Assembly (NCBI GenBank): GCA_902514485.1
Contig: CABXQY010000001.1
Span: 1 to 60,726, forward strand
From: an uncultured Candidatus Poseidoniales archaeon
Lineage (GTDB): Archaea > Thermoplasmatota > Poseidoniia > Poseidoniales > Thalassarchaeaceae
Length of the DNA stretch: 60,726 bases
Direction: 5' to 3'
Each line of letters opens with the position of its first letter. Position 1 is the stretch's first letter. Both the position numbers and the translations under genes were made by a program. The notes beneath the pieces are model-generated. The model did not search any database. It was not told the DNA's origin and worked only from the letters and a program-made list of their open reading frames with translations. Of the stretch, positions 22,566 through 35,587 are shown in pieces.

Positions 22566-22650
22566 TGGTGCAGGGGACAGGATTTGAACCTGCGAAGCAC
22601 TACGCACTGGGACCTAAACCCAGCCCCTTTGACCACTCGGGTACCCCTGC
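22566..22650 (-). tRNA. tRNA-Leu (anticodon UAG), class II long variable arm, encoded CCA
   Basis: The reverse complement GCAGGGGTACCCGAGTGGTCAAAGGGGCTGGGTTTAGGTCCCAGTGCGTAGTGCTTCGCAGGTTCAAATCCTGTCCCCTGCACCA folds as a cloverleaf. It has a 7-bp acceptor stem, anticodon loop TT-TAG-GT and T-loop TTCAAAT. Confidence 0.9.
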
Positions 22651-22743
22651 TTGGTTCTGCGGGAGAGCATTTGAGTCAAGAATGCAACGGATGGCGTCTT
22701 CTCATACCCAAGAGGTCTTAACGAGGAGTTAAAGCGACTGAAA

Positions 22744-23766: not shown

Positions 23767-23786
23767 TAATCAAACAGAAAATAATA

Positions 23787-24374
23787 ATGGAGAAATCTAT
23801 GAAAAATTCAGGTCACAGATTAGGGGCATCAGGGACTAATTTGGAAAATACTATTCAAGGATTGAGGAATTCAATAGATAATTTAGATGAAAAGAAATTT
23901 AGATACTGGGAGTTTGACATTAGAGAATCAATTGACGGAGTTGTTTTTGTATTTCATGATGATTTAATAAATCTAAATGGAGAAATAATAGAAATATCAA
24001 AAATGACTTTTTCAGAAATCAAAGATGCTGGTAAAACTTTAGATATATCGATACCTACTTTCGAGGAAGTAGTGATTGAATTAGAAAATCGTAAAGAAAA
24101 AGTAATGGTAGAAATAAAAGAGATTTTTTCAGATCAGGCTAGAAATGAAATTATTAATAGAGTTTCAGAATTAGAAAATTGGAAAATTATGGCTACACCT
24201 GAACGTTTCGAGAAATCATTTCCCAAAGAATCGAGAGCTTTTTGGCGAAAAGAAATTAAAGAATTAGAAATTAAATTTGTGAGAGTTGGTAGACATAGGG
24301 TTGAACTTTTTAAAGCATCAGGATCTTATTGGAGATGGAAAATGGCAAAACCAAAATGGCTATTTGGATTCTGA
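23787..24374 (+). CDS. Short glycerophosphodiester phosphodiesterase (GDPD)-like protein
   Basis: GDPD catalytic pattern GHRLG...ENT...WEFDIRESIDGVVFVFHDD (HR, E, E/D, HD). At 195 aa it is shorter than typical GDPDs. Confidence 0.6.
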   Translation: MEKSMKNSGHRLGASGTNLENTIQGLRNSIDNLDEKKFRYWEFDIRESIDGVVFVFHDDLINLNGEIIEISKMTFSEIKDAGKTLDISIPTFEEVVIELENRKEKVMVEIKEIFSDQARNEIINRVSELENWKIMATPERFEKSFPKESRAFWRKEIKELEIKFVRVGRHRVELFKASGSYWRWKMAKPKWLFGF

Positions 24375-24418: not shown

Positions 24419-24434
24419 TTTAGGTTACCCTAAA
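24419..24434. promoter_or_regulatory. Palindromic operator-like site TTTAGG-ttac-CCTAAA (copy A), overlapping a TATA-like CCTAAATTTTAT
   Basis: Perfect 6+6 inverted repeat with a 4-nt spacer. It lies 10 nt upstream of the first possible start (24445) and 31 nt upstream of ATG 24466 of the single-lobe transferrin-like gene. Confidence 0.65.
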
Positions 24435-24444
24435 TTTTATCTGT

Positions 24445-25515
24445 ATGTTATTATTCGGTAAAGGTATGAAGGTAGCTACGGTTACAGACTGGGCAGTAAA
24501 AAATAAGGCAATATTGATGGTAGGTGTTCTACTATGTGCAGGGACTATATACATGGTTTTTGATGTCAATTATAAGGAATGTGACGATCAAGAGAATTGT
24601 CTTATTGTTGCTTTTGAAGTACAGGATACTTACCTTATTTGGGATAAAAACCCACAACATCTAGCCGACAAACTTAGTACACTTACAGGAATGGATGTAG
24701 AGATATATCCAGTAACTGATTCGGGTGCTGCAATTGAAGCCGTCAGACTAGGTAATGCAGATATTGCATTCATGGATGGTGCAGCGGCATGGTTAGCATG
24801 GGAAGTATACGGATTAGATGTCTTGGCTGCTGAAGAGAAAGCAGATGGTAGAGTATACTACAATGCAACTGCATGGGTAAAAGCAGACTCGGACATGGCG
24901 GAAGCTTACCTCGATGATGATGATACTACAGACCCATTTGCACTAATGGAAGGAAAAATCTCTTGCCATACAGGATGGCTAAAAAGTGCAGGAATGCTCA
25001 TCCCTATGGGTTATTTGATTGGTAATGGATATGCAGAAGTTGTAGGTGATGAAAATGAAATTGAGTCTCTAAGAGATACAGTGTATGGTTTCTTCTCAGA
25101 TGATTCTAGTATCCCTGAGGGAGGAACGCCTTACTCATCCTACAAAGGAGCACTTAGGTGCCTATCTGATGGAAAGGGAGATGTGGCACTAGCTAAAGAT
25201 TCAGTAGTAAATTCATACTGTACTGGAGAAGATCGCTACGATTGGTGCTTAGATATTGATGAATATGTAATGTTACCTGCATTTGGGCAAGCTCCCAGCC
25301 ACCCTGCCATGTATAATTCAGAAGTGATGGATGAAGAAACCGTTATTATTGTTCAAGAAGGATTGGCAAAACTTGGAGATGATGATGAAGGAAGAGAAAT
25401 CCTCAATGACTTATTGAATACAGATGGAATGGTTGTTGCTAACTCCGAAGATCACTTGGGGACTTACGCTGCAGCTATATCCAATGTACCTGGAATTCAG
25501 GCTTATTTTGAATAA
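24445..25515 (+). CDS. Single-lobe transferrin-like substrate-binding protein, membrane- or lipid-anchored
   Basis: Blocks match transferrin lobes: NADIAFMDGAAAW, RVYYNATAWVKADSD, GKISCHTGWLKSAGMLIPMGYL, YSSYKGALRCLSDGKGDVALAKDSVV, DWCLDIDEY and APSHPAMY. It has an N-terminal hydrophobic anchor. Confidence 0.75.
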   Translation: MLLFGKGMKVATVTDWAVKNKAILMVGVLLCAGTIYMVFDVNYKECDDQENCLIVAFEVQDTYLIWDKNPQHLADKLSTLTGMDVEIYPVTDSGAAIEAVRLGNADIAFMDGAAAWLAWEVYGLDVLAAEEKADGRVYYNATAWVKADSDMAEAYLDDDDTTDPFALMEGKISCHTGWLKSAGMLIPMGYLIGNGYAEVVGDENEIESLRDTVYGFFSDDSSIPEGGTPYSSYKGALRCLSDGKGDVALAKDSVVNSYCTGEDRYDWCLDIDEYVMLPAFGQAPSHPAMYNSEVMDEETVIIVQEGLAKLGDDDEGREILNDLLNTDGMVVANSEDHLGTYAAAISNVPGIQAYFE

Positions 25516-25554: not shown

Positions 25555-26742
25555 ATGAAGTATTTTGCTATATTTGTTCTAATAATTCTTTGTTCAGGAT
25601 TGACGGGGTGTATTGATTCTGAGGACGACTTTGAATGGCCAGAACCAACAGAATTTAATTGCGAATTATCCCTAGACTTAAATCTAGAATGTAAATTGTA
25701 TATGGAAGGATTCGAAACTCCACATCACTCAATTTCCAATCCTGAAAATGAGGAAATATGGATTATTTATCTTAACGGATTTGTTAAGTCATGGGATGGA
25801 GAGGAACTGGAAGAAATCGCCGACTTAAGTTCATTTGTGAATCGCTGCCACATGGAACAGGGGCTTCTAGGAATGGCCTTCGATGAAGATTTCAATACTT
25901 CAAAAACAGTACTGATATCATATATAGAGGAAGGTGATTGTGATGGCCCTAATGATTCAGATTTGATATTAGCATCAATAAAATTGGGGGAAAGTGGATT
26001 ACTAGATCCTTCTACTATTTCTTCTTTAAGAACCGTAGAACAACCTTACAGGAATCATAATGGAGGACACCTGATTAGTATTGGAGATAATCAATATCTT
26101 TGGGGCATAGGTGACGGAGGTAGCGCAAATGATCCTGAAAATAATGGCCAAAATAGGAGTAACTCACTTGGAACTATAAACCTTTTTTCATACGAAAATG
26201 GGAAAATTTCTCCCGTACTTAACAACTCAGAAGATGACCCATATATCTTACATCATGGTTTGAGAAATCCATGGAGATTTTCACTTGGTGAAGATAATAT
26301 GATCTGGATTGGAGATGTTGGACAAAATTGTTGGGAAGAAATAAATTTAGTTCCATTGTTTGAAAGAAAGAATCTTGGTTGGTCATTAAAAGAAGGTTTT
26401 CAATATTTTGACGAGGATGGAGATTGTTATGAAGAAGATGACCACGAGGACCATAGTGATGATGACCTGACTTACCCAGTTGTTGCTTATGGTCATGAAA
26501 ATGGAAATTGTTCAATCACAGGAGGATTTTGGATGGATTGGGGGCCGGAATCACTACAAAATGGATATTTATATGGAGATTTTTGCAGTGGGGAGATTTG
26601 GTTATTGAAAGAAACTGATGACGGGAAATGGAAAGAAAACTATGTCGGTTCAAGTGGTGGAATGATTGTCGGGTTTGGTAGAGGAATTGCTGATGAAATA
26701 TTAATTTTTCATTGGACTGGCGATATAGTACTAATTGAATAA
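25555..26742 (+). CDS. PQQ-dependent sugar (glucose/sorbosone) dehydrogenase-like beta-propeller lipoprotein
   Basis: Signal plus lipobox LTGC. Family blocks GLLGMAFD, YRNHNGGHLISIGDN, GIGDGG, HGLRNPWRFS and GDVGQNCWEEIN are present. Confidence 0.75.
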   Translation: MKYFAIFVLIILCSGLTGCIDSEDDFEWPEPTEFNCELSLDLNLECKLYMEGFETPHHSISNPENEEIWIIYLNGFVKSWDGEELEEIADLSSFVNRCHMEQGLLGMAFDEDFNTSKTVLISYIEEGDCDGPNDSDLILASIKLGESGLLDPSTISSLRTVEQPYRNHNGGHLISIGDNQYLWGIGDGGSANDPENNGQNRSNSLGTINLFSYENGKISPVLNNSEDDPYILHHGLRNPWRFSLGEDNMIWIGDVGQNCWEEINLVPLFERKNLGWSLKEGFQYFDEDGDCYEEDDHEDHSDDDLTYPVVAYGHENGNCSITGGFWMDWGPESLQNGYLYGDFCSGEIWLLKETDDGKWKENYVGSSGGMIVGFGRGIADEILIFHWTGDIVLIE

Positions 26743-26752
26743 TAAAAAGACA

Positions 26753-27736
26753 TCATTTATTCACACTAGATGGTAAAAAGATACTTTTCCAAGATGGGCG
26801 ATTAAGCCCAATATCTTCTGTGAAATATGAACGTGCCTTAATTGAAATAAAATCAATGATTAAAACTACTACGAAGATAATAATTAGGTATGCAATTACT
26901 TTATCATATTGTAAAAATTTCAAATATAAATTAATGTAGTATCCAATTCCTCCAGCACCTACTATTCCAATCACAGTACCATGCCTGAAATTATATTCAA
27001 ACATGAAAATTACTTGAGAGATTAAATCATTTGCACATTCAGGAATAACTACCTTAAATGCTATTTCAAACCTTGTAAGGCCCATTGCTTCAGCAGCATC
27101 GAGAGGAGTTTTAGTCATACCTTCTATTGCTTCATATTGAAGTTTACCGAGATACCCGACTGTATAGACAGTCATAGCTAAGACTCCTGCTAAAGGTCCA
27201 TATCCAACTAGTATTACAAAGAATATTGCCCAAATAATACTTGGTAAACTTCTGAACGCAGCCAGTAAGAATCTAGGTAAATATGACAAAGTAGAAACTA
27301 GAAGAAAAATGATTCCACCATCGTTCCATCTCGTCAAATATTCGTAGAAAAATGATGCATAGTCCAAATTACGTGAAGCTAATATTGAAATTGGAAGGGA
27401 TATAATCGCCCCAAATACTGTTGATACAAATGCAATTTTCATTGTCTCGACCATCCCGATCCAGGCAGTTGAGCAGGTAAAATCCATGAAAGTCGGGTAA
27501 ACAGTGCATACAGGATAAGCTCGCGGTTCAAGGACACTCCAATCAGGAGGCCATAATGATTCATTAAAGAATGTCACAAGATTACCAAGTCCTTGAGATG
27601 CCCTGCCCCAGTCATTAACCATTCCATCAAAAACAACGATGCTGAATAAGAATATTAGAATAAAAATTCCAAGCCATGAGCGTAGTGGACCAAAGAAAGT
27701 ATCTAAGAACTTCCTTAAAGGATTAAAATCATTCAT
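26753..27736 (-). CDS. ABC importer permease, PhnE family
   Basis: The block EAAEAMGLTRFEIAFKVVIPE...RHGTVIGIVGAGGIGYYI matches the PhnE signature (VGAGGIG). Its start overlaps the ATPase stop by 4 nt. Confidence 0.85.
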   Translation of the reverse strand: MNDFNPLRKFLDTFFGPLRSWLGIFILIFLFSIVVFDGMVNDWGRASQGLGNLVTFFNESLWPPDWSVLEPRAYPVCTVYPTFMDFTCSTAWIGMVETMKIAFVSTVFGAIISLPISILASRNLDYASFFYEYLTRWNDGGIIFLLVSTLSYLPRFLLAAFRSLPSIIWAIFFVILVGYGPLAGVLAMTVYTVGYLGKLQYEAIEGMTKTPLDAAEAMGLTRFEIAFKVVIPECANDLISQVIFMFEYNFRHGTVIGIVGAGGIGYYINLYLKFLQYDKVIAYLIIIFVVVLIIDFISIKARSYFTEDIGLNRPSWKSIFLPSSVNK

Positions 27737-28482
27737 AATTTAACCTCCATAGCGGTAGGTTCGGTGATAAATGGATTAGCTCTTCCATCATCAATTACTA
27801 GTAACCTATCTGCCATCATTTTTGCACGTGTAATATCATGCTCTACAACAAGAAGTGCAGAATTACTAGATTTGACATATTTTGTGACCTCCTTAAGGAC
27901 CATACCAACTGTTTTTTCATCTAGTTCACTTAGGAACTCATCAGCCATTATCAGTTCAGGACATTGAGCCAATGTTCTAGCAGTAGCAACTCTTCTCTGT
28001 TGACCTCCTGAAAGCCGCCTTATTGGTTCACTAATTTTATCTTCAAGGCCCATGGAGTTAATTGCCTGAATAGCTTTTTTCTTTGCAAATGAGGACGGTA
28101 AACAAACACCAATAAAAGGTATTGGAGTATTATGACCTGCATTTGCACCTAACATTACATTATGTAATACGCTTGCATGTCTAACTAACCCCAAACTTTG
28201 TGGCACATATCCTAACTTTCCTCTTTTAGGACTGTCAGGAATAGTTTTACCACATACTTCAATACTACCTGAGATAGGACTTATCAGACCTGCAATTGTT
28301 TTCAACAAAGTCGACTTACCGACTCCAGAAGGCCCGGCAATTGCAACAATTTCTCCAGGGAATATTTCTAGATTTGGTATCTGAACTAAAGGCTTATCAT
28401 GCTTATATCCTATCGAAACATCATTTAATCGTATAATTGGTTCAATATTCTTAGGAATATTTGTCATAGACTCACCCCCCAC
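27733..28482 (-). CDS. ABC importer ATP-binding protein, PhnC family
   Basis: Walker A GPSGVGKST, signature LSGGQQRRVATAR and Walker B LIMADE are present. The likely true start is ATG 28467, preceded by GGGGGGTGAG. Confidence 0.85.
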   Translation of the reverse strand: MGGESMTNIPKNIEPIIRLNDVSIGYKHDKPLVQIPNLEIFPGEIVAIAGPSGVGKSTLLKTIAGLISPISGSIEVCGKTIPDSPKRGKLGYVPQSLGLVRHASVLHNVMLGANAGHNTPIPFIGVCLPSSFAKKKAIQAINSMGLEDKISEPIRRLSGGQQRRVATARTLAQCPELIMADEFLSELDEKTVGMVLKEVTKYVKSSNSALLVVEHDITRAKMMADRLLVIDDGRANPFITEPTAMEVKL

Positions 28483-28496
28483 ACCCGATTACTAAG

Positions 28497-28512
28497 TTTA
28501 GGCGCCCCTAAT
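28497..28512. promoter_or_regulatory. Palindromic operator-like site TTTAGG-cgcc-CCTAAt (copy D, one mismatch)
   Basis: Located between the stop of the bilobal binding-protein gene (28570) and the ATPase start (28467/28482). Confidence 0.55.
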
Positions 28513-28569: not shown

Positions 28570-30669
28570 TTAGTTTGCAAAGATATCAGAATAATATGAA
28601 GAAATATCAGGAATAATTGCTATGAATGACGAATACTGCCCTAGATGTTCTTGAGATGTCGCTCTGGTTAATCCGGATGTACCTAATATGTTATTCATTA
28701 TCTCAGAACCACACATATTTTTCTGAGATGTTTCATCAATTACATGTACTGAAATGTCATAACAACCTGTATATACCGATCCTCGTGTACTGAAATTTTC
28801 CAAATACATCTCATAGTTAAGTGAGATTAAAGCATTCAAGACCGCTGTTCTTGTCTGTATATCCAGCAACTCAGGATTATAGATTACAGAATCGCTTGGG
28901 ATAGGGGCAATAGCAGGGAGGGAGGTATACTCTTCAATATCTAAACACCAATTCATATTTTCTGAAATAACAACATTGTCACAATACATATTAACAGTAT
29001 TTTCTTCTAAAAATACAATATCTCCTCCGCCCTCAGAAAGACATCTTAGTGCTCCTGAATCGCCAAAATACGTATCATTTTGATTAGGTATTGATGAATT
29101 ATAATTGAAGAAAGAATAAATTATTTCTGATAAATAATCTATATCATTACTTTGATTTAATTCGAGATAATTATTTTTCGCTAAATAACTGATTGGAAGC
29201 ATCATACTTTCCACATCTGAAGAATCAGAATGGCAGGATGTTTTTCCTTCCAACAAATCAAAAGGATTAGTCAAAGGATCATTGTCTAAATGACTTATTG
29301 CGATTGAACTATTCGAATTAACCCAAGCTAAAGTATCGGAATATGTTCTACTATCTTCCATTTCTACTGCCGCCATTACTGCCAATTCATATTGTTTCCA
29401 TCCAACCCATGCCAACTCAGAATTAACAATTGCAATATCGGCATGACCATCTCTTAAACTGTTAAGTAATTCGTTTTGAGAATTAACAAAAAATATTTCC
29501 ACATCTATTTTTAATTTCTGAGATAGAAAATCGGCTAAGAGTTCCGGATTTTTATCTACATCATCAGATAATTTACCTAAATCATAAGCAATCTTAATTT
29601 GATTAATATCTGGGGAAACAGAAGTATTCAAGGAGAACTTATCGTTATAATAAGCAGAGATACCCGGTATATTGGAAATTAATGATGAATAACTACCCAA
29701 GTGTACTGAAGTGTTTGTTGCAATGAATCCAGGCGTATTAAGGATATTCTCGAGAATATTAGTCGCTTCGGGATCACTGCTCATTTCAACTAAAATATTT
29801 GTAACTTTACTTGTAATTTCTGAATCTAAAAAATTAGGGTTATACATTACTGGATGGCTAGGTGATTGCCCAAAAGCGGGTAATGCAATATACTCCTCAA
29901 TGTCAAGACACCATTCTTGATTGAGAGAAGAAATTTCATTATTACAAAGAATTTCTACGCTATTTTCTTCTAAAAAGGCAACATCTCCTTTTCCTTCCGA
30001 TAAACATTTCAAAGCACCCGAATAACCATAATATGGAGTTCCAGTGTCTGGAATTGAAGAATTTGGATTAAAAAATCCATGTATAGTATTTCTTATGGTC
30101 TCGACATCATTAGGATCTCCTATAATATTTGCATAACCTAGACCAATTAGGTAACCCATGGGAAGAAGCATACCCACTGATTTTAGCCATCCTGTATGGC
30201 AGGATGTTTTACCAGATAAAAGTGCAAACGGATCAGAATAGGGGTTATCGTCGAGATAAGCACTAGCAACGTCACTATCTGACTTTACCCATGCATTAGC
30301 ATTGTAATATGTTCTTCCATCGACATTAAGGTCTGCAGCTAAAACTTCTAATTGATATTGTTGCCAACCAACCCATGCGGCTCCAGCATCCATTAATGCA
30401 ATATCTGCATTGCCAAACCTCAGAGCTTCCACCATAGCACCCTCCGAGTCAACGCTGAACAGAGAAACATCATAATTTAATTTCTCAGAAAGATAATCTG
30501 CAAAAATCTGAGGGTTAGAATCGATGATGTCGATATTATCTTTGATCTCATATGCAATTACTAGAGTGCCAAGACTGCCTTCTTCACTATCATTACCGAT
30601 ACAACCTGAAACATAAGTCATTATCAAGATTGAAGTAATTAGAATAGAGACTAGCTTACCATTGGCCAT
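28570..30669 (-). CDS. Bilobal (tandem two-lobe) transferrin-like substrate-binding lipoprotein
   Basis: Signal plus lipobox VSGC. Lobe 1 (about aa 35-342) carries NADIALMDAGAAW, RTYYNANAWVKSDSD, GKTSCHTGWLKSVGMLLPMGYL, YYGYSGALKCLSEGKGDVAFLEE, EWCLDIEEY and SPSHPVMY. Lobe 2 (about aa 355-699) repeats the same block order with substitutions. GGAGTG lies 7 nt upstream of the ATG. Confidence 0.75.
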   Translation of the reverse strand: MANGKLVSILITSILIMTYVSGCIGNDSEEGSLGTLVIAYEIKDNIDIIDSNPQIFADYLSEKLNYDVSLFSVDSEGAMVEALRFGNADIALMDAGAAWVGWQQYQLEVLAADLNVDGRTYYNANAWVKSDSDVASAYLDDNPYSDPFALLSGKTSCHTGWLKSVGMLLPMGYLIGLGYANIIGDPNDVETIRNTIHGFFNPNSSIPDTGTPYYGYSGALKCLSEGKGDVAFLEENSVEILCNNEISSLNQEWCLDIEEYIALPAFGQSPSHPVMYNPNFLDSEITSKVTNILVEMSSDPEATNILENILNTPGFIATNTSVHLGSYSSLISNIPGISAYYNDKFSLNTSVSPDINQIKIAYDLGKLSDDVDKNPELLADFLSQKLKIDVEIFFVNSQNELLNSLRDGHADIAIVNSELAWVGWKQYELAVMAAVEMEDSRTYSDTLAWVNSNSSIAISHLDNDPLTNPFDLLEGKTSCHSDSSDVESMMLPISYLAKNNYLELNQSNDIDYLSEIIYSFFNYNSSIPNQNDTYFGDSGALRCLSEGGGDIVFLEENTVNMYCDNVVISENMNWCLDIEEYTSLPAIAPIPSDSVIYNPELLDIQTRTAVLNALISLNYEMYLENFSTRGSVYTGCYDISVHVIDETSQKNMCGSEIMNNILGTSGLTRATSQEHLGQYSSFIAIIPDISSYYSDIFAN

Positions 30670-30793: not shown

Positions 30794-30809
30794 TTTTTTT
30801 TAAAAAAAA
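30794..30809. terminator. T8A8 tract; it reads as an oligo-T run on either strand and may be an archaeal termination signal
   Basis: The sequence ccTTTTTTTTAAAAAAAAtgg lies in the 300-bp spacer between two co-directional minus-strand genes. Confidence 0.3.
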
Positions 30810-30928: not shown

Positions 30929-30957
30929 TTCGATGTGGGCAAAATGCCCACATCGAA
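30929..30957 (-). terminator. Perfect 13-bp stem / 3-nt loop hairpin 14 nt downstream of the stop of the Cys-module lipoprotein gene
   Basis: TTCGATGTGGGCA-aaa-TGCCCACATCGAA, all Watson-Crick. There is no adjacent oligo-T on the minus strand, so it may be an RNA-stability or processing element rather than a terminator. Confidence 0.4.
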
Positions 30958-30970
30958 ATCGTCAATTTAT

Positions 30971-32620
30971 TTATTGGAGTGTTCCAATGTCTTCCGCAGT
31001 TATTCCTAGCATATCCCAAGCTGGTTGTAGATGTGCGCGAACAGCGGCCTGATAGTCAGTTCCTGCTACTGGTACATTACTGAAATCATAGATTCCATTA
31101 ATTCCAGTTGTTCCAAATCCATCGAAGTGTGTAAATGCCGAACACTCTGCTTCAGTCATATCTGCATCAGTTGTATGGGACACCATATTATAACATCCAG
31201 TAAACATAGTAGCGCCATAATTCACATACCAACCATAAGATTCGCATGTAGTCTGATCTACTGCTGTGTCCCATGAGTGAGATACGCTGTTGTAGCAACC
31301 GTCTTGCCCAGCAACTGTGACATAATCTTCAACCCAAATATATGATGTGCATGTAGCATTATCATCGCTTGATGTTTCATGAGATACCATGTTGTAACAT
31401 CCAGTGAAAGTAGTGGAACCCCATGAAGCATTATCATAGTAATCCCAAGACTCGCAGATTGATTGATTCCATGAACTGTTCATACCATGAGATACACTGT
31501 TGTAACAACCTGTGTAAGTTTGTTCACCATAATTCTCTAAGAACATGTATCCAAGACATGAGGTCTCGTCACTGTCTCCAGAAACTTCGTGAATATTCAT
31601 ATTGTAGCAAATATCCTCACCATCACCCATATCATAATCAGTCATGTAGATGTATCCTGCACATTCATCAGCTGCCGCACCACTAACAGTCATAGTAACA
31701 CCATTGTAACAATCGTCACCAGGTGATGGATTCGCTTCAGCAACGTATTTTTCAATTACTCTCCAGAAAGAATATCCCTCTGCTTGATGTGTTTGAGCTT
31801 TTTCTACTGTATCATCAGTATTCATCTTGTGAGCATAACGTATTGTTGCTTGTGAGTAAATAATTACTAGATTCTTTACTATATCGTCTCTTGCAGCAGT
31901 TGCTCCAGCGAGATCTTCGGCTTGTAGTGCAGCAAGGCCCTCATTCATTGCTAAAAGAATTGCTGCATTTGCTATAGCAGTACCATCTGCATTTGCAGTA
32001 GCATAGTTACCTGCTCTCTTGTCTCCAGTAGCATACGGAGAGCATGAAGCATACTCATCTAGACCGTGATAAAACGCCCATCCTTCATCCCATGCGTGTT
32101 GTGCATCATCGGTGCCAAAGTTTCCAGCTTCTGCCTTGTTTATGGCTGCATTTAATTCATGAATTGCATATGCAACCATTATCTGATTTTGGACGCCTTT
32201 CTCAACAGCTTGCTCTCGAACACTATCTGAAGTTCCTTCAAAAATACCAGTTCCATCCAGTGCTGACATCAAGTAGTCATCTAAAGGTGAATCAGTACCG
32301 TAGAAGGTATCTAATCCATGTTGCTTACCAGTAGCATCTGCAAATCCTTGCAATGTTCTGTATGAACCATCGCTCTTTTCTGCATGCTTACCATTCATGT
32401 AAATATCTTTTACCCCATCCCAATCATGCTCTTCCGCTAGATCTTTGATATCACAAACATCTTCAACTAACATTCTATGATTATCAACATTTGAGGCGTA
32501 TTCATATCCGCCGTCTATTTCGTCAAAGTTATTATCAGTATCATCCGATAAACAGCCAGCAAAAGCTGCGGCTAACATACTTAATGTCATCATTATAGCA
32601 ATTATTTTATCATTTTTCAT
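30971..32620 (-). CDS. Secreted lipoprotein: unknown helical N-domain plus six tandem CYN.VSH...C modules
   Basis: Signal plus lipobox FAGC. GGAG lies upstream of the ATG. aa 304-496 contain six modules of about 30 aa, each with two Cys. Confidence 0.6.
   Translation of the reverse strand: MKNDKIIAIMMTLSMLAAAFAGCLSDDTDNNFDEIDGGYEYASNVDNHRMLVEDVCDIKDLAEEHDWDGVKDIYMNGKHAEKSDGSYRTLQGFADATGKQHGLDTFYGTDSPLDDYLMSALDGTGIFEGTSDSVREQAVEKGVQNQIMVAYAIHELNAAINKAEAGNFGTDDAQHAWDEGWAFYHGLDEYASCSPYATGDKRAGNYATANADGTAIANAAILLAMNEGLAALQAEDLAGATAARDDIVKNLVIIYSQATIRYAHKMNTDDTVEKAQTHQAEGYSFWRVIEKYVAEANPSPGDDCYNGVTMTVSGAAADECAGYIYMTDYDMGDGEDICYNMNIHEVSGDSDETSCLGYMFLENYGEQTYTGCYNSVSHGMNSSWNQSICESWDYYDNASWGSTTFTGCYNMVSHETSSDDNATCTSYIWVEDYVTVAGQDGCYNSVSHSWDTAVDQTTCESYGWYVNYGATMFTGCYNMVSHTTDADMTEAECSAFTHFDGFGTTGINGIYDFSNVPVAGTDYQAAVRAHLQPAWDMLGITAEDIGTLQ
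31133..31711 (-). repeat. Coding repeat: six modules of the form C-Y-N-x-[VNM]-[STI]-[HM]-x8-11-C-x-[SGA]-[YWF]
   Basis: The modules are CYNGVTMTVSGAAADECAGY, CYNMNIHEVSGDSDETSCLGY, CYNSVSHGMNSSWNQSICESW, CYNMVSHETSSDDNATCTSY, CYNSVSHSWDTAVDQTTCESY and CYNMVSHTTDADMTEAECSAF. Confidence 0.8.
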
Positions 32621-32637: not shown

Positions 32638-32653
32638 TTTAGGTCGCCCTAAA
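32638..32653. promoter_or_regulatory. Palindromic operator-like site TTTAGG-tcgc-CCTAAA (copy B)
   Basis: Perfect inverted repeat 18 nt upstream of ATG 32620 of the Cys-module lipoprotein gene, which probably places it at the TSS or 5' UTR. Confidence 0.65.
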
Positions 32654-32680: not shown

Positions 32681-32696
32681 TTTAGGTGAGCCTAAA
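32681..32696. promoter_or_regulatory. Palindromic operator-like site TTTAGG-tgag-CCTAAA (copy C) in a divergent promoter region
   Basis: Perfect inverted repeat. On the minus strand it abuts the TATA-like CCTAAATTTGATATA about 45-60 nt upstream of ATG 32620. It is 51 nt upstream of the plus-strand gene start at 32747. Confidence 0.65.
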
Positions 32697-32746: not shown

Positions 32747-34765
32747 GTGAGTATACCTTCTCGATATATTGTGAGTTATTCTGGACGAACGAAAATTTTG
32801 ACGGCAATCTGCGTTATTCTTATGTTTTCGATGTTTTTCCCTCTGGAAAATGAAGATAAAGTACTAGATACAGAGATAATAACTAAAAATCAACTGGGCG
32901 GCGGTGGAGGAAGTATAGAAGATAGATGCAGTTCTATTACTTTCGAAGATATTCTGCCTTATACTCATGCACATTTCGATATTGTGGTCAATGATGACTG
33001 GGATTCTGCAGAGGTAGAAGCGAGAGCATGGATAAATGGTAGCAGTGTTGATTTGTTAAGAGAAAAACTCGACTCATATTTGGAAGAACTATATCCGAGC
33101 GGAGGAGATGGTTGGATCTCAACTGATGAAAAATCTGCTGTTGAGGCAGTTGCTTCAGAATGCATAGAATATGCAATGACTCGAATAGGATTGAGAGAGT
33201 CTTCCCCTCACAGAGGGGGCGTGGGATTAGATTGGAAGAATGCTACTTGGCAAGATAATGGCGTTATAATAGAAGAGTGGAATTTAGTCCCTTCTAATCA
33301 TGCAGATATAAGGGATTGTACTGCTATAGGATCTAGTAATGATTGTGAAGAAGTTCCTGTTTATCCCAATTCAGAAAGAGATTGTAATACCTTGGTTGAA
33401 ACTTCTGAGGGAGTAGATGAATGCAGACTTGAACTATGGATGAATGCTACGATGGTAATACCCAATATGGCCCAAGGAGAGGAGTTTACTCTCGCATTTA
33501 ATGCATCTAATATGACCAATGCAGTTCTAGACTTTACATTCCCTAGTAATCCTGATTTAAGATTAGATATGTGGGAAGAATGCGAAGGAAGAGATGTTGA
33601 ATTCGAGCCTATGACTCATGAAGATGCGCCGTTGAGAGGAACATGTGTCGGAGATGGCTCATCCACATATACATTTGAAAATAATGAAGATATCAAGTAT
33701 ATTCTATCCCCACATCGAAGTAGAGATGTTTGGCCTAGTGGAGAGGATATTTTTGCAGATTTTACAATTGCGCCGATACCTATTGACGAACCACCGGTTT
33801 GGACAGAAAATGCACCACTTGATGAATCATGGTTTCCTTCTCTAGAAAGTGGGGAAATAGTATGGGCAGAATGGGATAGCGTTTCTTCATGGTTTGTCGA
33901 TGAAAAACCACTTACTCAATTAGAGGTTAATTGTGAAGCTGATGAATCAGCAAATATATTCCAACGATCGGATAAATCATTCTCAGGAATTATACCAAGC
34001 GATGGAGTCGTAAGTGTTACTTGTGAAGCAATTGATGTCGCAGGACAGAGTTCAGGAAATAGAACTTGGCACCTTGGAATCCCAATTTCTGTATCGACGA
34101 CATCTAATATTCTCCAAAGTCCACACCCGATAAAGATTGAATTGAATCAAGGATGGCCGGAATTAAGTATAGACTATAGTTTCACACAAACTCAAAATAT
34201 TAATTTAGCTACAATTGATACAGTTACGATAATATCAGAAACGACATTAATGGTTGAATCAATGGGAATGAATCCAGGATTGGTTGATCTTTGGGTTGGA
34301 GTTTACGGAGAAAATGTATATCCCGTTGACAAGATATTTAGTCTAAATATAATTAAAGAGAGTTCACCACCTCTGATTTCTGTTTCCGAATATGGATGGG
34401 AATTAGATACTTGGAAGGCACAGGGTCAATTTAGTGACCCAGATGGAGAAGAAGTCGTATTTTCATTATCCATAGATAATATATCAGCAGGTAGTATATC
34501 TGTTTCGGGAGATTCTTGGAGTACTCCGATAATAAATTTCGGATTATGGGATGAAGGAATCCACGAAGTAAAAGTTATTGGTTGCGATATTTCATTGAAA
34601 TGTAACGAGGTTATTATGATGGTAAATAATTCTCATTTATTCAATACAATTGCTCCTCTTCCCGTCGAAAATCCTAAGGAAACTGGTTTTTTGCCCGGGC
34701 CGAGTATTGTTTTAACTATTTTAGCTCTAACTGTCGGTCTCATATACTCGACCCGACGCGAATGA
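32747..34765 (+). CDS. Large secreted surface protein with a C-terminal membrane anchor; function unknown
   Basis: GTG start and N-terminal signal anchor. The protein is acidic, has many N-x-S/T sequons and includes a HYR-like stretch (VSVTCEAIDVAGQSS). The C-terminus is GFLPGPSIVLTILALTVGLIYSTRRE. Confidence 0.55.
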   Translation: MSIPSRYIVSYSGRTKILTAICVILMFSMFFPLENEDKVLDTEIITKNQLGGGGGSIEDRCSSITFEDILPYTHAHFDIVVNDDWDSAEVEARAWINGSSVDLLREKLDSYLEELYPSGGDGWISTDEKSAVEAVASECIEYAMTRIGLRESSPHRGGVGLDWKNATWQDNGVIIEEWNLVPSNHADIRDCTAIGSSNDCEEVPVYPNSERDCNTLVETSEGVDECRLELWMNATMVIPNMAQGEEFTLAFNASNMTNAVLDFTFPSNPDLRLDMWEECEGRDVEFEPMTHEDAPLRGTCVGDGSSTYTFENNEDIKYILSPHRSRDVWPSGEDIFADFTIAPIPIDEPPVWTENAPLDESWFPSLESGEIVWAEWDSVSSWFVDEKPLTQLEVNCEADESANIFQRSDKSFSGIIPSDGVVSVTCEAIDVAGQSSGNRTWHLGIPISVSTTSNILQSPHPIKIELNQGWPELSIDYSFTQTQNINLATIDTVTIISETTLMVESMGMNPGLVDLWVGVYGENVYPVDKIFSLNIIKESSPPLISVSEYGWELDTWKAQGQFSDPDGEEVVFSLSIDNISAGSISVSGDSWSTPIINFGLWDEGIHEVKVIGCDISLKCNEVIMMVNNSHLFNTIAPLPVENPKETGFLPGPSIVLTILALTVGLIYSTRRE

Positions 34766-34768
34766 ATC

Positions 34769-35587
34769 ATGAGTTTCTCCGGGAGTGTCAGCCAACCATC
34801 TCATGAAGGAGGTTTGTTGGTATCTTTCGAAGGTAGGGCTCCGGGACTATATACAGGAATAAGAATTGTAGGTGGAAAATTCTTAGGAAGAGTCGATTCA
34901 GTAATTGGATCAGTAAATGGTGCATTCATTCATATCAAACCACTGGCAGAAGGCGTAGTAGCAGAAAATGCATTAGGTTCGCCTGTTGAGATTGCACCAA
35001 GAGATCGAAGACCACGTGATGATAGAAAGAGAAATAATAGAGGAAGAGACAATAATCGTGGTGGAAATGATAGACGAAGTTTCGATAGAGATATTCATAT
35101 GAAACCAGGGGATTGGCGTTGTCCAAAATGTAAAAATCATAACTATGCCAATAAACAATTCTGTAATCGTTCAACTTGTAACGAAAAGAAACCAAGTGGA
35201 AGTAATAATTCTTATCAGAGAAGAGGCAATGACCGTGGAAGAAACAATAACCGTGGAAGAGACAATAACCGTGGAAGACATAATACTGATGATTCTAACA
35301 TTAAACCAGGTGACTGGATATGCCCGAAATGTAAAAATCATAATTATGCAAGTAAAAATTTCTGTAACCGCTCAAGTTGTGATATGAGAAAACCAGGGGG
35401 GCCAACAAGTTCCAAAGGTAGTAGAAATACACCGGCTAGGGCGAGAAGACCTGATAGAAAATCTACTGAAAAACGAGGGAATAGTAATTCATCACGTAGG
35501 CAAACAAGTCGGCAAAGTTCATCGGGTTCTGGAAAAAGAAGAAGAGACAATAACAGAAGCGGAAAAAAGTTCAATTCAAGAAGATAA
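34769..35587 (+). CDS. gar1: Gar1-like (H/ACA RNP) domain fused to Arg/Asn/Gly-rich repeats and two RanBP2-type zinc fingers
   Basis: The N-terminal GLLVSFEGRAPGLYTGIRIVGGKFLGRVDSVIGSVNGAFIHIKP parallels archaeal Gar1 (GFLIVRT..VPSLNDRVVD...VGIVKDVFGPVKMPYVAIKP). The fingers are GDWRCPKCKNHNYANKQFCNRSTC (nt 35108-35179) and GDWICPKCKNHNYASKNFCNRSSC (nt 35309-35380). Confidence 0.7.
   Translation: MSFSGSVSQPSHEGGLLVSFEGRAPGLYTGIRIVGGKFLGRVDSVIGSVNGAFIHIKPLAEGVVAENALGSPVEIAPRDRRPRDDRKRNNRGRDNNRGGNDRRSFDRDIHMKPGDWRCPKCKNHNYANKQFCNRSTCNEKKPSGSNNSYQRRGNDRGRNNNRGRDNNRGRHNTDDSNIKPGDWICPKCKNHNYASKNFCNRSSCDMRKPGGPTSSKGSRNTPARARRPDRKSTEKRGNSNSSRRQTSRQSSSGSGKRRRDNNRSGKKFNSRR
35233..35286 (+). repeat. 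3 x 18-nt tandem coding repeat (ccgtggaagaNacaataa) encoding RGRNNN-RGRDNN-RGRHNT
   Basis: Read directly: ccgtggaagaaacaataa / ccgtggaagagacaataa / ccgtggaagacataatac. A related copy lies at about 35040-35070. Confidence 0.85.

What the first reader, a model, noticed from the sequence alone, without database searches (positions are those of the whole stretch)
28570..30669. Bilobal transferrin-like lipoprotein wired to a PhnC/PhnE-type ABC importer; the second lobe has a substituted ligand set
This 699-aa lipoprotein is a tandem duplication of the lobe found at 24445-25515, which is the defining architecture of animal transferrins. Lobe 1 keeps every ligand: Asp94 in LMDAG, Tyr121 in RTYYNANAWV, Thr159/Lys163 in SCHTGWLKSVG, Tyr216 in GYSGALKCL and His272 in SPSHP. 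Lobe 2 keeps the block order, but most ligands are substituted. IVNSE has Asp replaced by Asn416. RTYSDTLAWV keeps Tyr443. SCHSDSSDVES has Thr replaced by Ser481 and the anion loop rewritten. FGDSGALRCL has Tyr replaced by Asp537. IPSDS has His replaced by Asp593. This mirrors the degenerate second lobes of melanotransferrin and insect transferrins, or it may indicate a different metal with an N/Y/D/D set. The gene sits directly upstream of the PhnC- and PhnE-family genes (26753-28482). The binding protein therefore appears to deliver cargo to an ABC importer, something no eukaryotic transferrin does. With the single-lobe paralogue, the PQQ-dehydrogenase-like lipoprotein and the Cys-module lipoprotein, this forms a candidate uptake system I have not seen described.
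Basis: partly seen in the sequence, partly recalled or inferred. Interest (0 to 1): 0.9.

Follow-up and report, generated by a model that had tools for sequence, protein, structure and literature searches.

The report
Archaeal transferrin feeding an ABC importer
A marine Group II archaeon carries a true relative of animal transferrin, with one intact iron-binding lobe and one degenerate lobe, as the surface binding protein of an ABC importer that has been read as a "phosphonate transporter" and appears to be under metal-responsive control.

Summary
The 699-aa ORF is real. It has a conserved lipobox (G22-C23) and two homologous lobes (41% identity, E 1e-93). Each lobe alone hits only transferrins among solved structures.

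Lobe 1 and the single-lobe paralogue carry the complete transferrin site, Asp-Tyr-Tyr-His plus Thr/Lys. These residues are invariant in 43 single-lobe relatives. Lobe 2 has lost all four ligands (N416/S444/D537/D593). Lobe 2 is still under purifying selection.

The gene order Tf-like, PhnC, PhnE holds in 64 of 66 informative loci across Poseidoniales.

New findings:
- A 16-bp palindrome, T-TTAGG-N4-CCTAA-A, occurs 4 times in the window (0.10 expected). It occurs 160 times in 1.28 Mb of window plus related loci (about 1.4 expected). Every site lies at a gene start in this cluster.
- DtxR-family genes adjoin the operon in four related loci.
- A Fea1-like gene is present only where lobes are degenerate (13 of 13 loci against 0 of 50).

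Best reading: a metal-regulated Fe(III)-carbonate uptake system. It is the closest prokaryotic relative of eukaryotic transferrins, and its bilobal form arose independently. I found no description in the literature. Iron binding itself is untested.

The parts
28570..30669 (-). Bilobal transferrin-like substrate-binding lipoprotein, 699 aa
   Evidence: ORF. Pfam Transferrin 89.1 bits and Phosphonate-bd 125.2 bits. PDB best hits are transferrins, E 3e-19. AF2 model pLDDT 84.2; the top 50 Foldseek hits are all bilobal transferrins.
30601..30669 (-). Signal peptide and lipobox (aa 1-23, VSGC; Cys23 is the predicted lipidation site)
   Evidence: Read from the sequence. G22 and C23 are invariant in 37 homologues. 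The region is helix 3-20 in the model.
29626..30579 (-). Lobe 1 (aa 31-348) with an intact transferrin site: D94, Y122, Y216, H272, plus anion residues T159 and K163. Cys157-Cys222 and Cys242-Cys254 correspond to Tf disulfides 118-194 and 227-241.
   Evidence: Alone it hits PDB transferrins at 5e-21. Pfam Transferrin 63.8 bits. dN/dS 0.05-0.09.
28573..29610 (-). Lobe 2 (aa 354-699), degenerate: N416, S444, S481, D485, D537, D593 at the six functional columns
   Evidence: Alone it hits melanotransferrin at 4.5e-15. Pfam Transferrin 30.9 bits. dN/dS 0.10-0.20.
28699..28812 (-). Two-Cys beta module of about 36 aa inserted in lobe 2 (aa 620-657). It is homologous to the repeats of the Fea1-like lipoprotein.
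   Evidence: blastp 34% identity, E 1e-5. HMM hit 4e-17. Distribution across loci. Beta strands 620-645 in the model.
27733..28482 (-). PhnC-like ABC ATPase
   Evidence: Pfam ABC_tran. The best NCBIfam match is TIGR02315 at 145 bits, below its cut-off of 266. Conserved downstream of the Tf-like gene.
26753..27736 (-). PhnE-like ABC permease; its start overlaps the PhnC stop by 4 nt
   Evidence: TIGR01097 at 208 bits against a cut-off of 216.7; Pfam BPD_transp_1. Synteny.
28498..28511 (.). Operator palindrome TTAGGCGCCCCTAA, 16 nt upstream of the PhnC GTG
   Evidence: The same position is occupied in many related loci.
30971..32620 (-). Fea1-related lipoprotein, 549 aa. The N-terminal Fea1 domain is followed by six tandem two-Cys modules (nt 31130-31753).
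   Evidence: NCBIfam NF038033 at 395 bits (cut-off 250); Pfam Fea1 3e-25. Modules.
32639..32652 (.). Operator palindrome, proximal copy, 19 nt upstream of the Fea1 ATG
32682..32695 (.). Operator palindrome, distal copy, 43 nt from the first. It lies in the divergent intergenic region shared with ORF 32747-34765.
30929..30957 (.). Perfect 13-nt inverted repeat just after the Fea1 stop. It could be an attenuator or terminator between the Fea1 and Tf-like genes. No operator lies in this 301-nt spacer.
24445..25515 (+). Single-lobe transferrin-like paralogue, 356 aa, with an intact site (D111, Y139, T176, K180, Y233, H286)
   Evidence: All six residues are invariant in 43 single-lobe relatives. 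AF2 pLDDT 91.3.
24420..24433 (.). Operator palindrome TTAGGTTACCCTAA, 12 nt upstream of the paralogue ATG
25555..26742 (+). GSDH-family (glucose/sorbosone-dehydrogenase-like beta-propeller) lipoprotein, immediately downstream of the paralogue and probably co-transcribed with it
   Evidence: Pfam GSDH 4.5e-17. It is found with the paralogue only in the closest relatives L001-L003 and L006.

Best explanation
This is a metal-regulated, high-affinity Fe(III) uptake system of a marine Group II archaeon (family Thalassarchaeaceae).

Proposed mechanism:
- The 699-aa protein is anchored by lipid to the outer face of the cell membrane.
- Lobe 1 captures inorganic Fe(III) together with a synergistic (bi)carbonate in a transferrin-type site. 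The ligands are Asp94, Tyr122, Tyr216 and His272. The anion is held by Thr159, Lys163 and a helix N-terminus.
- Lobe 1 then docks on the PhnE-type permease, and the PhnC ATPase drives import. It therefore works like FbpABC/FutABC, but with a true transferrin homologue as the binding protein.
- Lobe 2 no longer binds iron in the canonical way. It is kept under purifying selection as an accessory lobe.
- The Fea1-like lipoprotein encoded just upstream is a relative of algal iron-assimilation proteins. It probably concentrates Fe at the surface. The single-lobe paralogue provides a second intact binding unit.
- All these genes sit behind copies of one palindrome, T-TTAGG-N4-CCTAA-A, which is most likely the operator of a DtxR-family metal-dependent repressor.

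Shown: the homology, ligand conservation, synteny, operator specificity and selection.
Inferred: Fe(III)/carbonate as the cargo, DtxR as the regulator, transfer to PhnE, and the role of lobe 2.
For: Transferrin homology:
- Pfam Transferrin scores above cut-off for the whole protein and for each lobe.
- Only transferrins are hit in the PDB by sequence: 3e-19 for the whole protein, 5e-21 for lobe 1, 4.5e-15 for lobe 2.
- The Foldseek top 50 are all bilobal transferrins.
- Only 337 clusters among 1.84 billion representatives match. This is a small Tf-like family, not the broad PhnD family.

Ligand conservation:
- D-Y-T-K-Y-H is complete in lobe 1 and the paralogue.
- It is invariant in 43 single-lobe relatives.
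- It is present in lobe 1 of about 220 of 240 bilobal homologues and in 50 GTDB loci in every lobe.
- Solved PhnD/PtxB proteins carry other residues at these columns: G-Y-G-S-H-Y/D.
- The cysteines of two Tf-type disulfides are conserved.

ABC wiring:
- Tf-like, PhnC, PhnE in that order occur in 64 of 66 loci with enough downstream sequence, across MGIIa, MGIIb and 'MGIII'.

Metal context:
- The palindrome occurs 4 times in the window against 0.10 expected.
- It occurs 160 times in 1.28 Mb against about 1.4 expected. Every site lies at the start of a Fea1, Tf, PhnC, paralogue or big672 gene.
- A DtxR-family gene (PF01325 + PF02742) is adjacent to the operon in L081, and DtxR homologues are adjacent in L046, L051 and L057.
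- The neighbour is an Fea1-related lipoprotein (NF038033, 395 bits).

Lobe 2:
- dN/dS 0.10-0.20 shows it is functional.
Against: - No biochemical or expression data exist.
- The permease and ATPase are closest to PhnE/PhnC. PhnE falls just below the equivalog cut-off (208 against 216.7 bits). I know of no precedent for Fe(III) passing a PhnE-type permease.
- Pfam Phosphonate-bd scores higher than Transferrin for both lobes.
- Single-lobe fold search interleaves PtxB/AioX/ArrX with transferrin lobes at nearly equal E-values.
- PhnD-like proteins from Nitrosopumilus- and Heimdallarchaeota-labelled MAGs also show D-Y-T-G-Y-H. The tetrad therefore predates the Tf-specific features, and its meaning there is unknown.
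- No DtxR gene lies in this window. Its resemblance to the DtxR/IdeR box rests on my own knowledge of that consensus. DtxR-family regulators also sense Mn.
- Conserved neighbours include a glycerol-3-phosphate dehydrogenase and, in this clade, a GDPD phosphodiesterase. This is a weak hint toward a phosphorus compound.
- The bilobal gene itself has no operator in its 301-nt upstream spacer.
Confidence: 0.66

Rival explanations
1. It is what the annotation pipelines call it: the binding protein of a phosphonate, phosphite, phosphate or glycerol-phosphate ABC importer of the PhnT family. The transferrin-like residues would bind an oxyanion rather than a metal.
For: - PF12974 scores 125 bits, and PhnE/PhnC are the best family matches.
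- JGI names orthologues 'ABC-type phosphate/phosphonate transport system substrate-binding protein'.
- Tully 2019 lists phosphonate transport as an MGII core trait.
- The PhnT family is known to have diversified to G1P/G3P.
- GPDH and GDPD genes are neighbours.
- Tf ligand positions are homologous to PhnD ligand positions.
Against: - The PhnD equivalog TIGR03431 scores 49 bits against a cut-off of 261, and TIGR01098 scores 72 against 112.
- The residues at the contact columns differ from solved PhnD/PtxB and instead form the exact Fe(III) tetrad, which is invariant across the family.
- The PDB sequence hits listed are exclusively transferrins.
- DtxR genes adjoin the operon in four related loci, a DtxR-box-like operator marks the cluster, and the neighbour is Fea1-like.
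- No C-P lyase or phosphonatase domains occur in the window ORFs scanned.
Confidence: 0.12
2. It is a metal importer whose cargo is not free Fe(III). The cargo could be another hard cation such as Mn(III) or Mn(II), or an iron-ligand complex handed over by the Fea1-like or GSDH-like proteins.
For: - Transferrin sites bind many tri- and tetravalent metals. PDB hits include Ti, Yb, Al, Cr and Bi transferrins.
- DtxR-family regulators include Mn sensors (own knowledge).
- In Fea1-linked clades even lobe 1 is sometimes altered, for example to DYTNHN or DYTKDN.
Against: - The full Asp-Tyr-Tyr-His set plus a Thr/Lys carbonate site is the classic Fe(III) signature, and it is invariant in most species.
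- Fea1-family proteins are tied to iron assimilation.
- Iron is the scarce metal in the open-ocean habitat (own knowledge).
Confidence: 0.12
3. This is the first reader's alternative: lobe 2 is a second, re-tooled metal site (N/D, D, D carboxylate-rich) for a different cation, not an accessory lobe.
For: - S444, D485, D537 and D593 are retained between the window and relatives whose lobe 2 is only about 65% identical. The patterns are NSSDDD, DSSDDD and ESNDDD.
- Lobe 2 is under purifying selection.
Against: - The supposedly retained Tyr is not at the ligand column.
- Other clades with a degenerate lobe 2 carry unrelated sets: DYSSNS, NNSSDS, NHTDEK, AIPDDK, AHTDPE. No common site is conserved.
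- The anion-site Thr and Lys are also lost.
Confidence: 0.1
4. Evolutionary rival: the archaeal genes were acquired from a eukaryote by transfer of a transferrin gene into Thermoplasmatota, and are not the prokaryotic stem of the transferrin family.
For: - The closest eukaryotic sequences, from Ichthyosporea, are 34-36% identical.
- Archaeal monophyly is unresolved, at 4% and 42% bootstrap in two data sets. The trees alone do not fix the direction of transfer.
Against: - The archaeal genes sit in a PhnC/PhnE operon, like their PhnD-family relatives.
- Pfam scores form a graded series: Nitrosopumilus-type, Heimdall-type, MGII, other Thermoplasmatota, Ichthyosporea.
- With solved PhnD/PtxB as outgroup, the DYTGYH archaeal proteins branch between PhnD and the clade of Thermoplasmatota plus eukaryotes, with 74% support.
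- The family is near-universal in Poseidoniales, with at least 440 hits in species representatives.
Confidence: 0.15

Closest known systems
Eukaryotic transferrins (Pfam PF00405), especially melanotransferrin and the multi-lobe transferrins of Ichthyosporea
   Same: - True sequence homology.
- The same Asp-Tyr-Tyr-His plus Thr/(Arg/Lys) site in lobe 1.
- The cysteines of two of the same disulfides.
- Tandem lobes.
- Like melanotransferrin it is membrane-anchored, and its best structural match is melanotransferrin 6xr0. From my own knowledge, melanotransferrin also binds iron only in its first lobe.
   Different: - It is an archaeal lipoprotein encoded in an operon with an ABC permease and ATPase.
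- No receptor or endocytosis route exists.
- The dilysine pH trigger is absent: K206 is Glu and K296 is missing.
- Most Tf disulfides are absent.
- The lobe duplication is independent of the eukaryotic ones.
FbpABC / FutABC ferric-ion ABC importers ('bacterial transferrin' FbpA)
   Same: The proposed mode of action matches. A type-II periplasmic-binding-protein fold holds Fe(III) with Tyr ligands and a synergistic anion, and delivers it to an ABC importer.
   Different: - It belongs to a different binding-protein family. There is no Pfam SBP_bac_6/8/11 match.
- The permease belongs to a different family, PhnE-type.
- The ligand set is the eukaryotic one (Asp, Tyr, Tyr, His), not the FbpA one.
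PhnCDE / PtxABC phosphonate and phosphite importers (TC 3.A.1.9)
   Same: - The operon layout and the permease/ATPase families match.
- PF12974 matches.
- Ligand positions are homologous.
   Different: - It fails the NCBIfam PhnD cut-offs.
- The contact residues are replaced by the Fe(III) tetrad.
- It has Tf-type cysteines and tandem lobes.
- It has a metal-type operator and DtxR neighbours.
Algal Fea1 / ISIP2a phytotransferrin systems and Dunaliella multi-lobe transferrins
   Same: An Fea1-family protein and a transferrin-family protein work together at the cell surface of a marine microbe. Lobe number is expanded to 1, 2, 3 or 4.
   Different: Here the two proteins are encoded side by side in a prokaryotic regulon and feed an ABC importer. 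They do not feed endocytosis or a ferroxidase/permease route.
ABC importers with tandem substrate-binding domains (for example GlnPQ)
   Same: Several complete binding domains sit in one polypeptide and serve one translocator (own knowledge).
   Different: The domains are not fused to the permease. In this clade the second domain has lost the binding site.

Membership tests
Transferrin family (Pfam PF00405) | Profile match above the curated threshold, for the whole protein and for each lobe | tested here: met
   89.1 bits against 20.3 for the whole protein; lobe 1 63.8 bits; lobe 2 30.9 bits.
Transferrin family (Pfam PF00405) | Iron ligands Asp63, Tyr95, Tyr188, His249 (human N-lobe numbering) | tested here: met
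   Lobe 1 has D94/Y122/Y216/H272 and the paralogue has D111/Y139/Y233/H286. Lobe 2 does not meet this feature: N416/S444/D537/D593.
Transferrin family (Pfam PF00405) | Synergistic-anion site Thr120 + Arg124 | tested here: met
   Lobe 1 has T159 and K163. The Lys also occurs in ichthyosporean lobes and some animal lobes. Lobe 2 has S481 and D485, so it does not meet this feature.
Transferrin family (Pfam PF00405) | Conserved disulfides | tested here: inconclusive
   Cysteines align with Tf C118-C194 and C227(-C241) in both lobes. The other six N-lobe disulfides are absent. Bond formation was not tested.
Transferrin family (Pfam PF00405) | Lobe fold closer to transferrin than to other type-II binding proteins | tested here: inconclusive
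   The whole protein gives a top 50 made up entirely of transferrins. The single-lobe model gives transferrins first (2.4e-15, about 360 columns, 20-25% identity), but PtxB/AioX/ArrX are interleaved from rank 11.
Transferrin family (Pfam PF00405) | Bilobal architecture inherited from the duplication that made animal N- and C-lobes | tested here: not met
   All eukaryotic lobes form one clan (93% and 76% bootstrap). Archaeal lobes 1 and 2 pair within the archaeal groups.
Transferrin family (Pfam PF00405) | Reversible Fe(III) + carbonate binding | not testable with these tools
   This needs protein chemistry.
PhnD phosphonate-binding protein (NCBIfam TIGR03431 / TIGR01098; TC 3.A.1.9) | Score above the curated family cut-offs | tested here: not met
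   TIGR03431 scores 49.3 against 261.1. TIGR01098 scores 71.9 against 112. The broader Pfam PF12974 is met.
PhnD phosphonate-binding protein (NCBIfam TIGR03431 / TIGR01098; TC 3.A.1.9) | Phosphonate or phosphite contact residues as in solved PhnD/PtxB | tested here: not met
   PhnD/PtxB show G-Y-G-S-H-Y/D at the six columns, against D-Y-T-K-Y-H here. Only the Tyr95-equivalent is shared.
PhnD phosphonate-binding protein (NCBIfam TIGR03431 / TIGR01098; TC 3.A.1.9) | Encoded with PhnC and PhnE | tested here: met
PhnD phosphonate-binding protein (NCBIfam TIGR03431 / TIGR01098; TC 3.A.1.9) | Linked phosphonate catabolism genes (C-P lyase, phosphonatase) | tested here: not met
   None appear among the Pfam hits of 38 of the 44 window ORFs of 150 aa or more. 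The rest of the genome was not seen.
FbpA/FutA ferric-binding proteins | Membership of the SBP_bac_6/8/11 families | tested here: not met
   No such Pfam hit. The protein works like these but is not a member.
DtxR-family regulon | Palindromic operator at the promoters and a cognate DtxR-family repressor | tested here: inconclusive
   The operator-like palindrome is highly specific to the cluster. DtxR genes are adjacent in L081, L046, L051 and L057. No DtxR gene lies in this window, and binding was not tested.
FEA1-related lipoprotein (NCBIfam NF038033), neighbour gene | Score above the curated cut-off | tested here: met
   395.1 bits against 250; Pfam Fea1 3.3e-25.

The most novel reading that the evidence does not exclude
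The Thermoplasmatota Tf-PhnC-PhnE operon is a living intermediate in the origin of transferrin. On this reading, a PhnD-type binding protein acquired the Fe(III)-carbonate site while still serving a PhnE/PhnC importer. A gene of this kind then passed from a marine archaeon into the holozoan stem and gave rise to animal transferrins. As a corollary, the 'phosphonate transporter' counted as a core trait of Marine Group II archaea is really their main iron importer. It would be controlled by a DtxR-type repressor through the TTAGG-N4-CCTAA operator.
Probability: 0.35. Interest if true: 0.88.

Novelty: new variant of a known kind. Interest (0 to 1): 0.8.

Why it matters
Marine Group II archaea are among the most abundant archaea in the surface ocean, and they have no cultured representative. 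Their genomes have been read as encoding phosphonate uptake. If this operon imports iron instead, their role in both the phosphorus and the iron cycle needs revising.

The system would also give the transferrin family a prokaryotic, operon-embedded relative with an intact site. That makes the proposed descent of transferrin from phosphonate-binding proteins directly testable.

It further supplies a sharply defined operator for finding the archaeal iron regulon in metagenomes. Finally, it provides natural one-, two-, three- and four-lobe variants, with intact or degenerate lobes, for studying how transferrin lobes lose or change function.

Tried and rejected
- A first attempt to scan genomes with a 15-sequence alignment failed because it had no conserved stretch. 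It worked with 8 closer sequences.
- Word-start literature searches for 'transferrin' mostly matched 'transferring'.
- Whole-word searches for transferrin with Poseidoniales, PhnD or Ichthyosporea, and for Fea1/ISIP2a with archaeal names, gave nothing relevant.
- McQuaid 2018 is not held. I could not check whether archaeal sequences were in its tree.
- The Fea1-like protein has no PDB sequence relative.
- Model coordinates are not exposed, so I could not measure ligand geometry.
- L081 and L082, from other Thermoplasmatota, lack the exact palindrome. A quick look upstream of the L081 DtxR gene showed no obvious variant.
- I rejected 'generic PhnD' because of the NCBIfam cut-offs and the contact residues.
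- I rejected 'pseudogenised lobe 2' because dN/dS is 0.10-0.20.
- I rejected real bacterial hosts for the few bacterial-labelled contigs. They show full archaeal synteny at 60-94% identity, which points to mis-binning.
- The exact sister group of eukaryotic transferrins could not be resolved with NJ bootstraps.


Full report
**1. What is there**

The ORF at 28570-30669 (-) encodes 699 aa. Its N-terminus ends in a lipobox (VSGC), and Gly22 and Cys23 are invariant in 37 homologues.

The two halves are clearly homologous. Lobe 1 against lobe 2 gives 41% identity, E 1e-93. Lobe 1 against the single-lobe paralogue at 24445-25515 gives 54%. Lobe 2 against the paralogue gives 37%.

An AlphaFold2 model has mean pLDDT 84.2 and pTM 0.69. 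It shows two type-II binding-protein lobes joined by a low-confidence linker at residues 342-350. Lobe 2 carries an extra beta module at about residues 620-645.

**2. Is it transferrin-like or just PhnD-like?**

It is both, and measurably in between.

- Pfam gives Phosphonate-bd at 125 bits and Transferrin at 89 bits (cut-off 20.3).
- Taken separately, lobe 1 scores 77.9 and 63.8 bits, and lobe 2 scores 52.6 and 30.9 bits.
- NCBIfam's PhnD models are missed by a wide margin: TIGR03431 scores 49 against 261, and TIGR01098 scores 72 against 112.
- By sequence, every solved-structure relative listed (the best 60 of about 95 matches) is a transferrin, lactoferrin, melanotransferrin or saxiphilin. 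The whole protein scores 3e-19, lobe 1 scores 5e-21 and lobe 2 scores 4.5e-15.
- A PhnD-like protein from Nitrosopumilus run the same way hits PtxB, PhnD, GpxB and ArrX, and no transferrin.
- An exhaustive HMMER scan of 1.84 billion cluster representatives found only 337 relatives. These are archaeal lipoproteins with one to three lobes, multi-lobe eukaryotic proteins and animal transferrins. The very large PhnD family is not reached.
- Foldseek with the full model returns only bilobal transferrins in the top 50, with melanotransferrin 6xr0 best at 6.7e-29.

One caveat applies. A high-confidence model of the single-lobe paralogue (pLDDT 91.3) puts transferrin lobes first, but PtxB, AioX and ArrX appear from rank 11 at nearly the same E-values. 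Transferrins align over about 360 columns at 20-25% identity, against about 300 columns at 16-19% for the others. Fold alone therefore does not separate the two families. Sequence and site residues do.

**3. The binding site**

I aligned 65 lobes with the human transferrin N-lobe, whose D63/Y95/T120/R124/Y188/H249 numbering checked out, and repeated the mapping with hmmalign.

- Lobe 1: D94, Y122, T159, K163, Y216, H272.
- Paralogue: D111, Y139, T176, K180, Y233, H286.
- Lobe 2: N416, S444, S481, D485, D537, D593.

In the gapless lobe-lobe alignment, Y121-Y122 pairs with Y443-S444. The ligand (lactoferrin Tyr92, transferrin Tyr95) pairs with Y122. Lobe 2 has therefore lost all four ligands and both anion residues.

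Cysteines matching the transferrin disulfides 118-194 and 227-241 are present in both lobes. The other transferrin disulfides and the dilysine pH trigger are absent.

Solved PhnD and PtxB carry G-Y-G-S-H-Y/D at the six columns. HMMER alignments show that the transferrin ligand positions correspond to the PhnD ligand-contact positions Y47, Y93, H157 and D205 (numbering from my own knowledge and from PMC12718374). This fits the published idea that transferrins descend from phosphonate-binding proteins (PMC7676907).

**4. Conservation**

- The six residues are invariant in 43 single-lobe relatives at 38-80% identity.
- Among about 240 bilobal homologues, 104 have both lobes intact, 110 have the window's pattern (DYTKYH/NSSDDD) and 19 have DYTKYN/DSSDDD.
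- In 80 loci from GTDB species representatives, 50 have every lobe intact.
- Other clades with a degenerate lobe 2 carry unrelated residues: DYSSNS, NNSSDS, NHTDEK, AIPDDK. There is no shared 'alternative site'.
- Lobe 2 is not decaying. Against six to eight close orthologues, dN/dS is 0.10-0.20 for lobe 2 and 0.05-0.09 for lobe 1.

**5. Organism and distribution**

Named relatives come from 'Candidatus Thalassarchaeaceae', Poseidoniales and 'Euryarchaeota archaeon' MAGs. NCBI calls them 'PhnD/SsuA/transferrin family substrate-binding protein'. JGI calls them either 'ABC-type phosphate/phosphonate transport system substrate-binding protein' or 'melanoma-associated antigen p97'.

A scan of one genome per GTDB species found at least 440 coding matches. 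The best 80 are almost all Poseidoniales (MGIIa, MGIIb, 'MGIII'). The few bacterial labels have full archaeal synteny and look mis-binned. More distant single-lobe members come from other Thermoplasmatota.

**6. Wiring**

Tf-like, PhnC-like and PhnE-like genes follow one another on one strand in 64 of 66 loci with enough downstream sequence. The same holds in two distant Thermoplasmatota loci.

Lobe number varies across loci. There are 29 one-lobe and 52 two-lobe genes, one locus has two bilobal genes in tandem, and trilobal proteins exist with all lobes intact.

**7. Evidence for metal control (new)**

The palindrome TTAGG-N4-CCTAA occurs four times in the 60.7-kb window, against 0.10 expected. 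None of 100 shuffles reached four. The four sites are:

- 12 nt upstream of the paralogue ATG;
- 16 nt upstream of the PhnC GTG;
- two sites, 43 nt apart, in the intergenic region between the Fea1-like gene and the divergent ORF 32747-34765.

In the window plus 82 related loci (1.28 Mb) there are 160 sites, against about 1.4 expected. Every one lies at the start of a Fea1-like, Tf-like, PhnC-like, paralogue or big672 gene. The consensus extends to T-TTAGG-N4-CCTAA-A.

From my own knowledge, it resembles the DtxR/IdeR box TTAGGTTAGCCTAACCTAA. Some sites read TTAGGTTAGCCTAA exactly.

Independent context agrees. A DtxR-family gene (Fe_dep_repress + Fe_dep_repr_C) lies directly upstream of the Tf-like operon in a Thermoplasmatota locus. 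DtxR homologues lie divergently next to it in three MGIII-type loci, with three operator copies between the genes.

In the window, the bilobal gene has no operator of its own. Where the Fea1-like gene is absent, the operators sit directly in front of the Tf-like gene. The Fea1-like gene therefore looks inserted between promoter and Tf gene, with a perfect 13-nt hairpin after its stop.

**8. The Fea1 link (new)**

The upstream gene is an FEA1-related lipoprotein (NF038033 at 395 bits; Pfam Fea1 3e-25). Fea1/ISIP2a proteins are algal iron-assimilation proteins.

Among loci with enough upstream sequence:

- All 13 loci with a Fea1-like gene have a degenerate lobe 2, and some also have an altered lobe 1.
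- None of the 50 loci with intact lobes has a Fea1-like gene.
- Two loci have altered lobes without a Fea1-like gene.

The degenerate lobes cluster together in the tree. This may therefore reflect one or a few evolutionary events rather than 13 independent ones.

A two-Cys module of about 36 aa, inserted in lobe 2 (aa 620-657), is homologous to the six tandem repeats at the C-terminus of the Fea1-like protein (34% identity, E 1e-5). In 80 loci this module occurs only in Tf-like and Fea1-like proteins.

**9. Evolution**

The nearest eukaryotic relatives are multi-lobe proteins of Ichthyosporea: Chromosphaera, Creolimax, Amoebidium and Ichthyophonus. A preprint already places transferrin in the holozoan ancestor (PMC11429873).

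- In NJ trees the eukaryotic lobes form one clan (93% and 76% bootstrap).
- With solved PhnD/PtxB as outgroup, Thermoplasmatota plus eukaryotes separate from PhnD and from the DYTGYH proteins of Nitrosopumilus- and Heimdallarchaeota-labelled MAGs at 74%.
- Archaeal monophyly is unresolved, at 4% and 42%.

The archaeal family is therefore the closest prokaryotic relative of eukaryotic transferrins, either as sister or as paraphyletic stem. The two-lobe form arose separately in archaea and eukaryotes. The direction of transfer is not proven. The operon context and the graded Pfam scores favour a prokaryotic origin.

**10. Rivals**

The phosphorus-compound reading rests on four things: the PhnE/PhnC affinities, the higher Phosphonate-bd score, the conserved glycerol-3-phosphate dehydrogenase and GDPD neighbours, and the known plasticity of the PhnT family. 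Against it stand the failed PhnD cut-offs, the replaced contact residues, the DtxR context, the Fea1 neighbour and the lack of phosphonate catabolic genes in the window ORFs scanned.

A different metal cannot be excluded.

Tully 2019 lists 'transport of phosphonates' as an MGII core trait. That call probably rests on this operon, but I did not verify it in their data.

**11. Novelty and limits**

Annotation pipelines already attach 'transferrin' or 'p97' to these proteins. However, I found no paper linking transferrin or Fea1 to Marine Group II or Poseidoniales. Subscription journals, including McQuaid 2018, could not be read.

Everything functional is inferred: iron binding, carbonate dependence, passage through PhnE, DtxR binding and the role of lobe 2.

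My verdict is that this is a real, conserved and apparently undescribed variant. It is a transferrin-family protein used as the binding component of an ABC importer in abundant marine archaea. Lobe 1 is canonical. Lobe 2 is retained but has no canonical site.

Noticed in passing
window 28699-28812 (-) and 31130-31753 (-): A two-Cys module of about 36 aa (..Y/F-T-G-C-Y-N/D-x-V/I-x-H..C) occurs once in lobe 2. It occurs six times in tandem in the Fea1-like lipoprotein. In 80 related loci it is found only in these two protein families.
   Followed up: partly
P0246, P0267 (Nitrosopumilus-labelled); P0254, P0258 (P0254 Heimdallarchaeota-labelled, P0258 grouped with it): PhnD-like binding proteins without transferrin cysteines carry D-Y-T-G-Y-H at the transferrin ligand columns. 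Their best PDB hits are PtxB/PhnD. They may be an earlier step toward the iron site, or the tetrad may serve another ligand there.
   Followed up: partly
window 32747-34765 (+) and 34769-35587 (+): A 672-aa surface protein with no Pfam match, and a protein with two RanBP2-type zinc fingers and Arg/Asn-rich tracts, are divergent syntenic neighbours of the operon in most Poseidoniales loci. One operator copy lies next to the start of the 672-aa gene, so it may belong to the regulon.
   Followed up: partly
window 30929-30957: A perfect 13-nt inverted repeat (TTCGATGTGGGCA N3 TGCCCACATCGAA) lies immediately after the Fea1-like stop codon, followed further on by a T8/A8 palindrome at 30794-30809.
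   Followed up: no
L002, L041, L054, L061, L072: Contigs assigned to Rhodobacteraceae, Salinimicrobium, Yoonia, Deltaproteobacteria and Flavobacteriaceae MAGs carry the archaeal locus with full synteny at 60-94% identity. They are most likely mis-binned archaeal contigs.
   Followed up: partly
L063 9642-14019; P0120/P0121: One species has two bilobal genes in tandem, one intact and one degenerate (DYTHFD/PRTSEE). Other archaea have trilobal proteins with all three sites intact.
   Followed up: partly
L082 4647-5075 and 9298-12158: In a 3.0-Mb Thermoplasmatota contig, the Tf-like operon sits beside a NikR_C-domain gene. It also sits beside a second ABC system with an SBP_bac_6/8/11 binding protein and a 572-aa double permease, which is FbpAB-like.
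   Followed up: no
window 22744-24374 (+): An NAD-dependent glycerol-3-phosphate dehydrogenase and a short GDPD phosphodiesterase lie directly upstream of the paralogue. The dehydrogenase is a conserved neighbour of PhnE across the order, in convergent orientation.
   Followed up: partly
window 22614-23519 (-): This 301-aa ORF runs antisense to the glycerol-3-phosphate dehydrogenase gene and overlaps tRNA-Leu (22566-22650). It is almost certainly not a gene.
   Followed up: no
window 37991-44494 (-): A 2167-aa ORF whose only Pfam match is a weak FG-GAP-like repeat. It is probably a giant surface protein.
   Followed up: no
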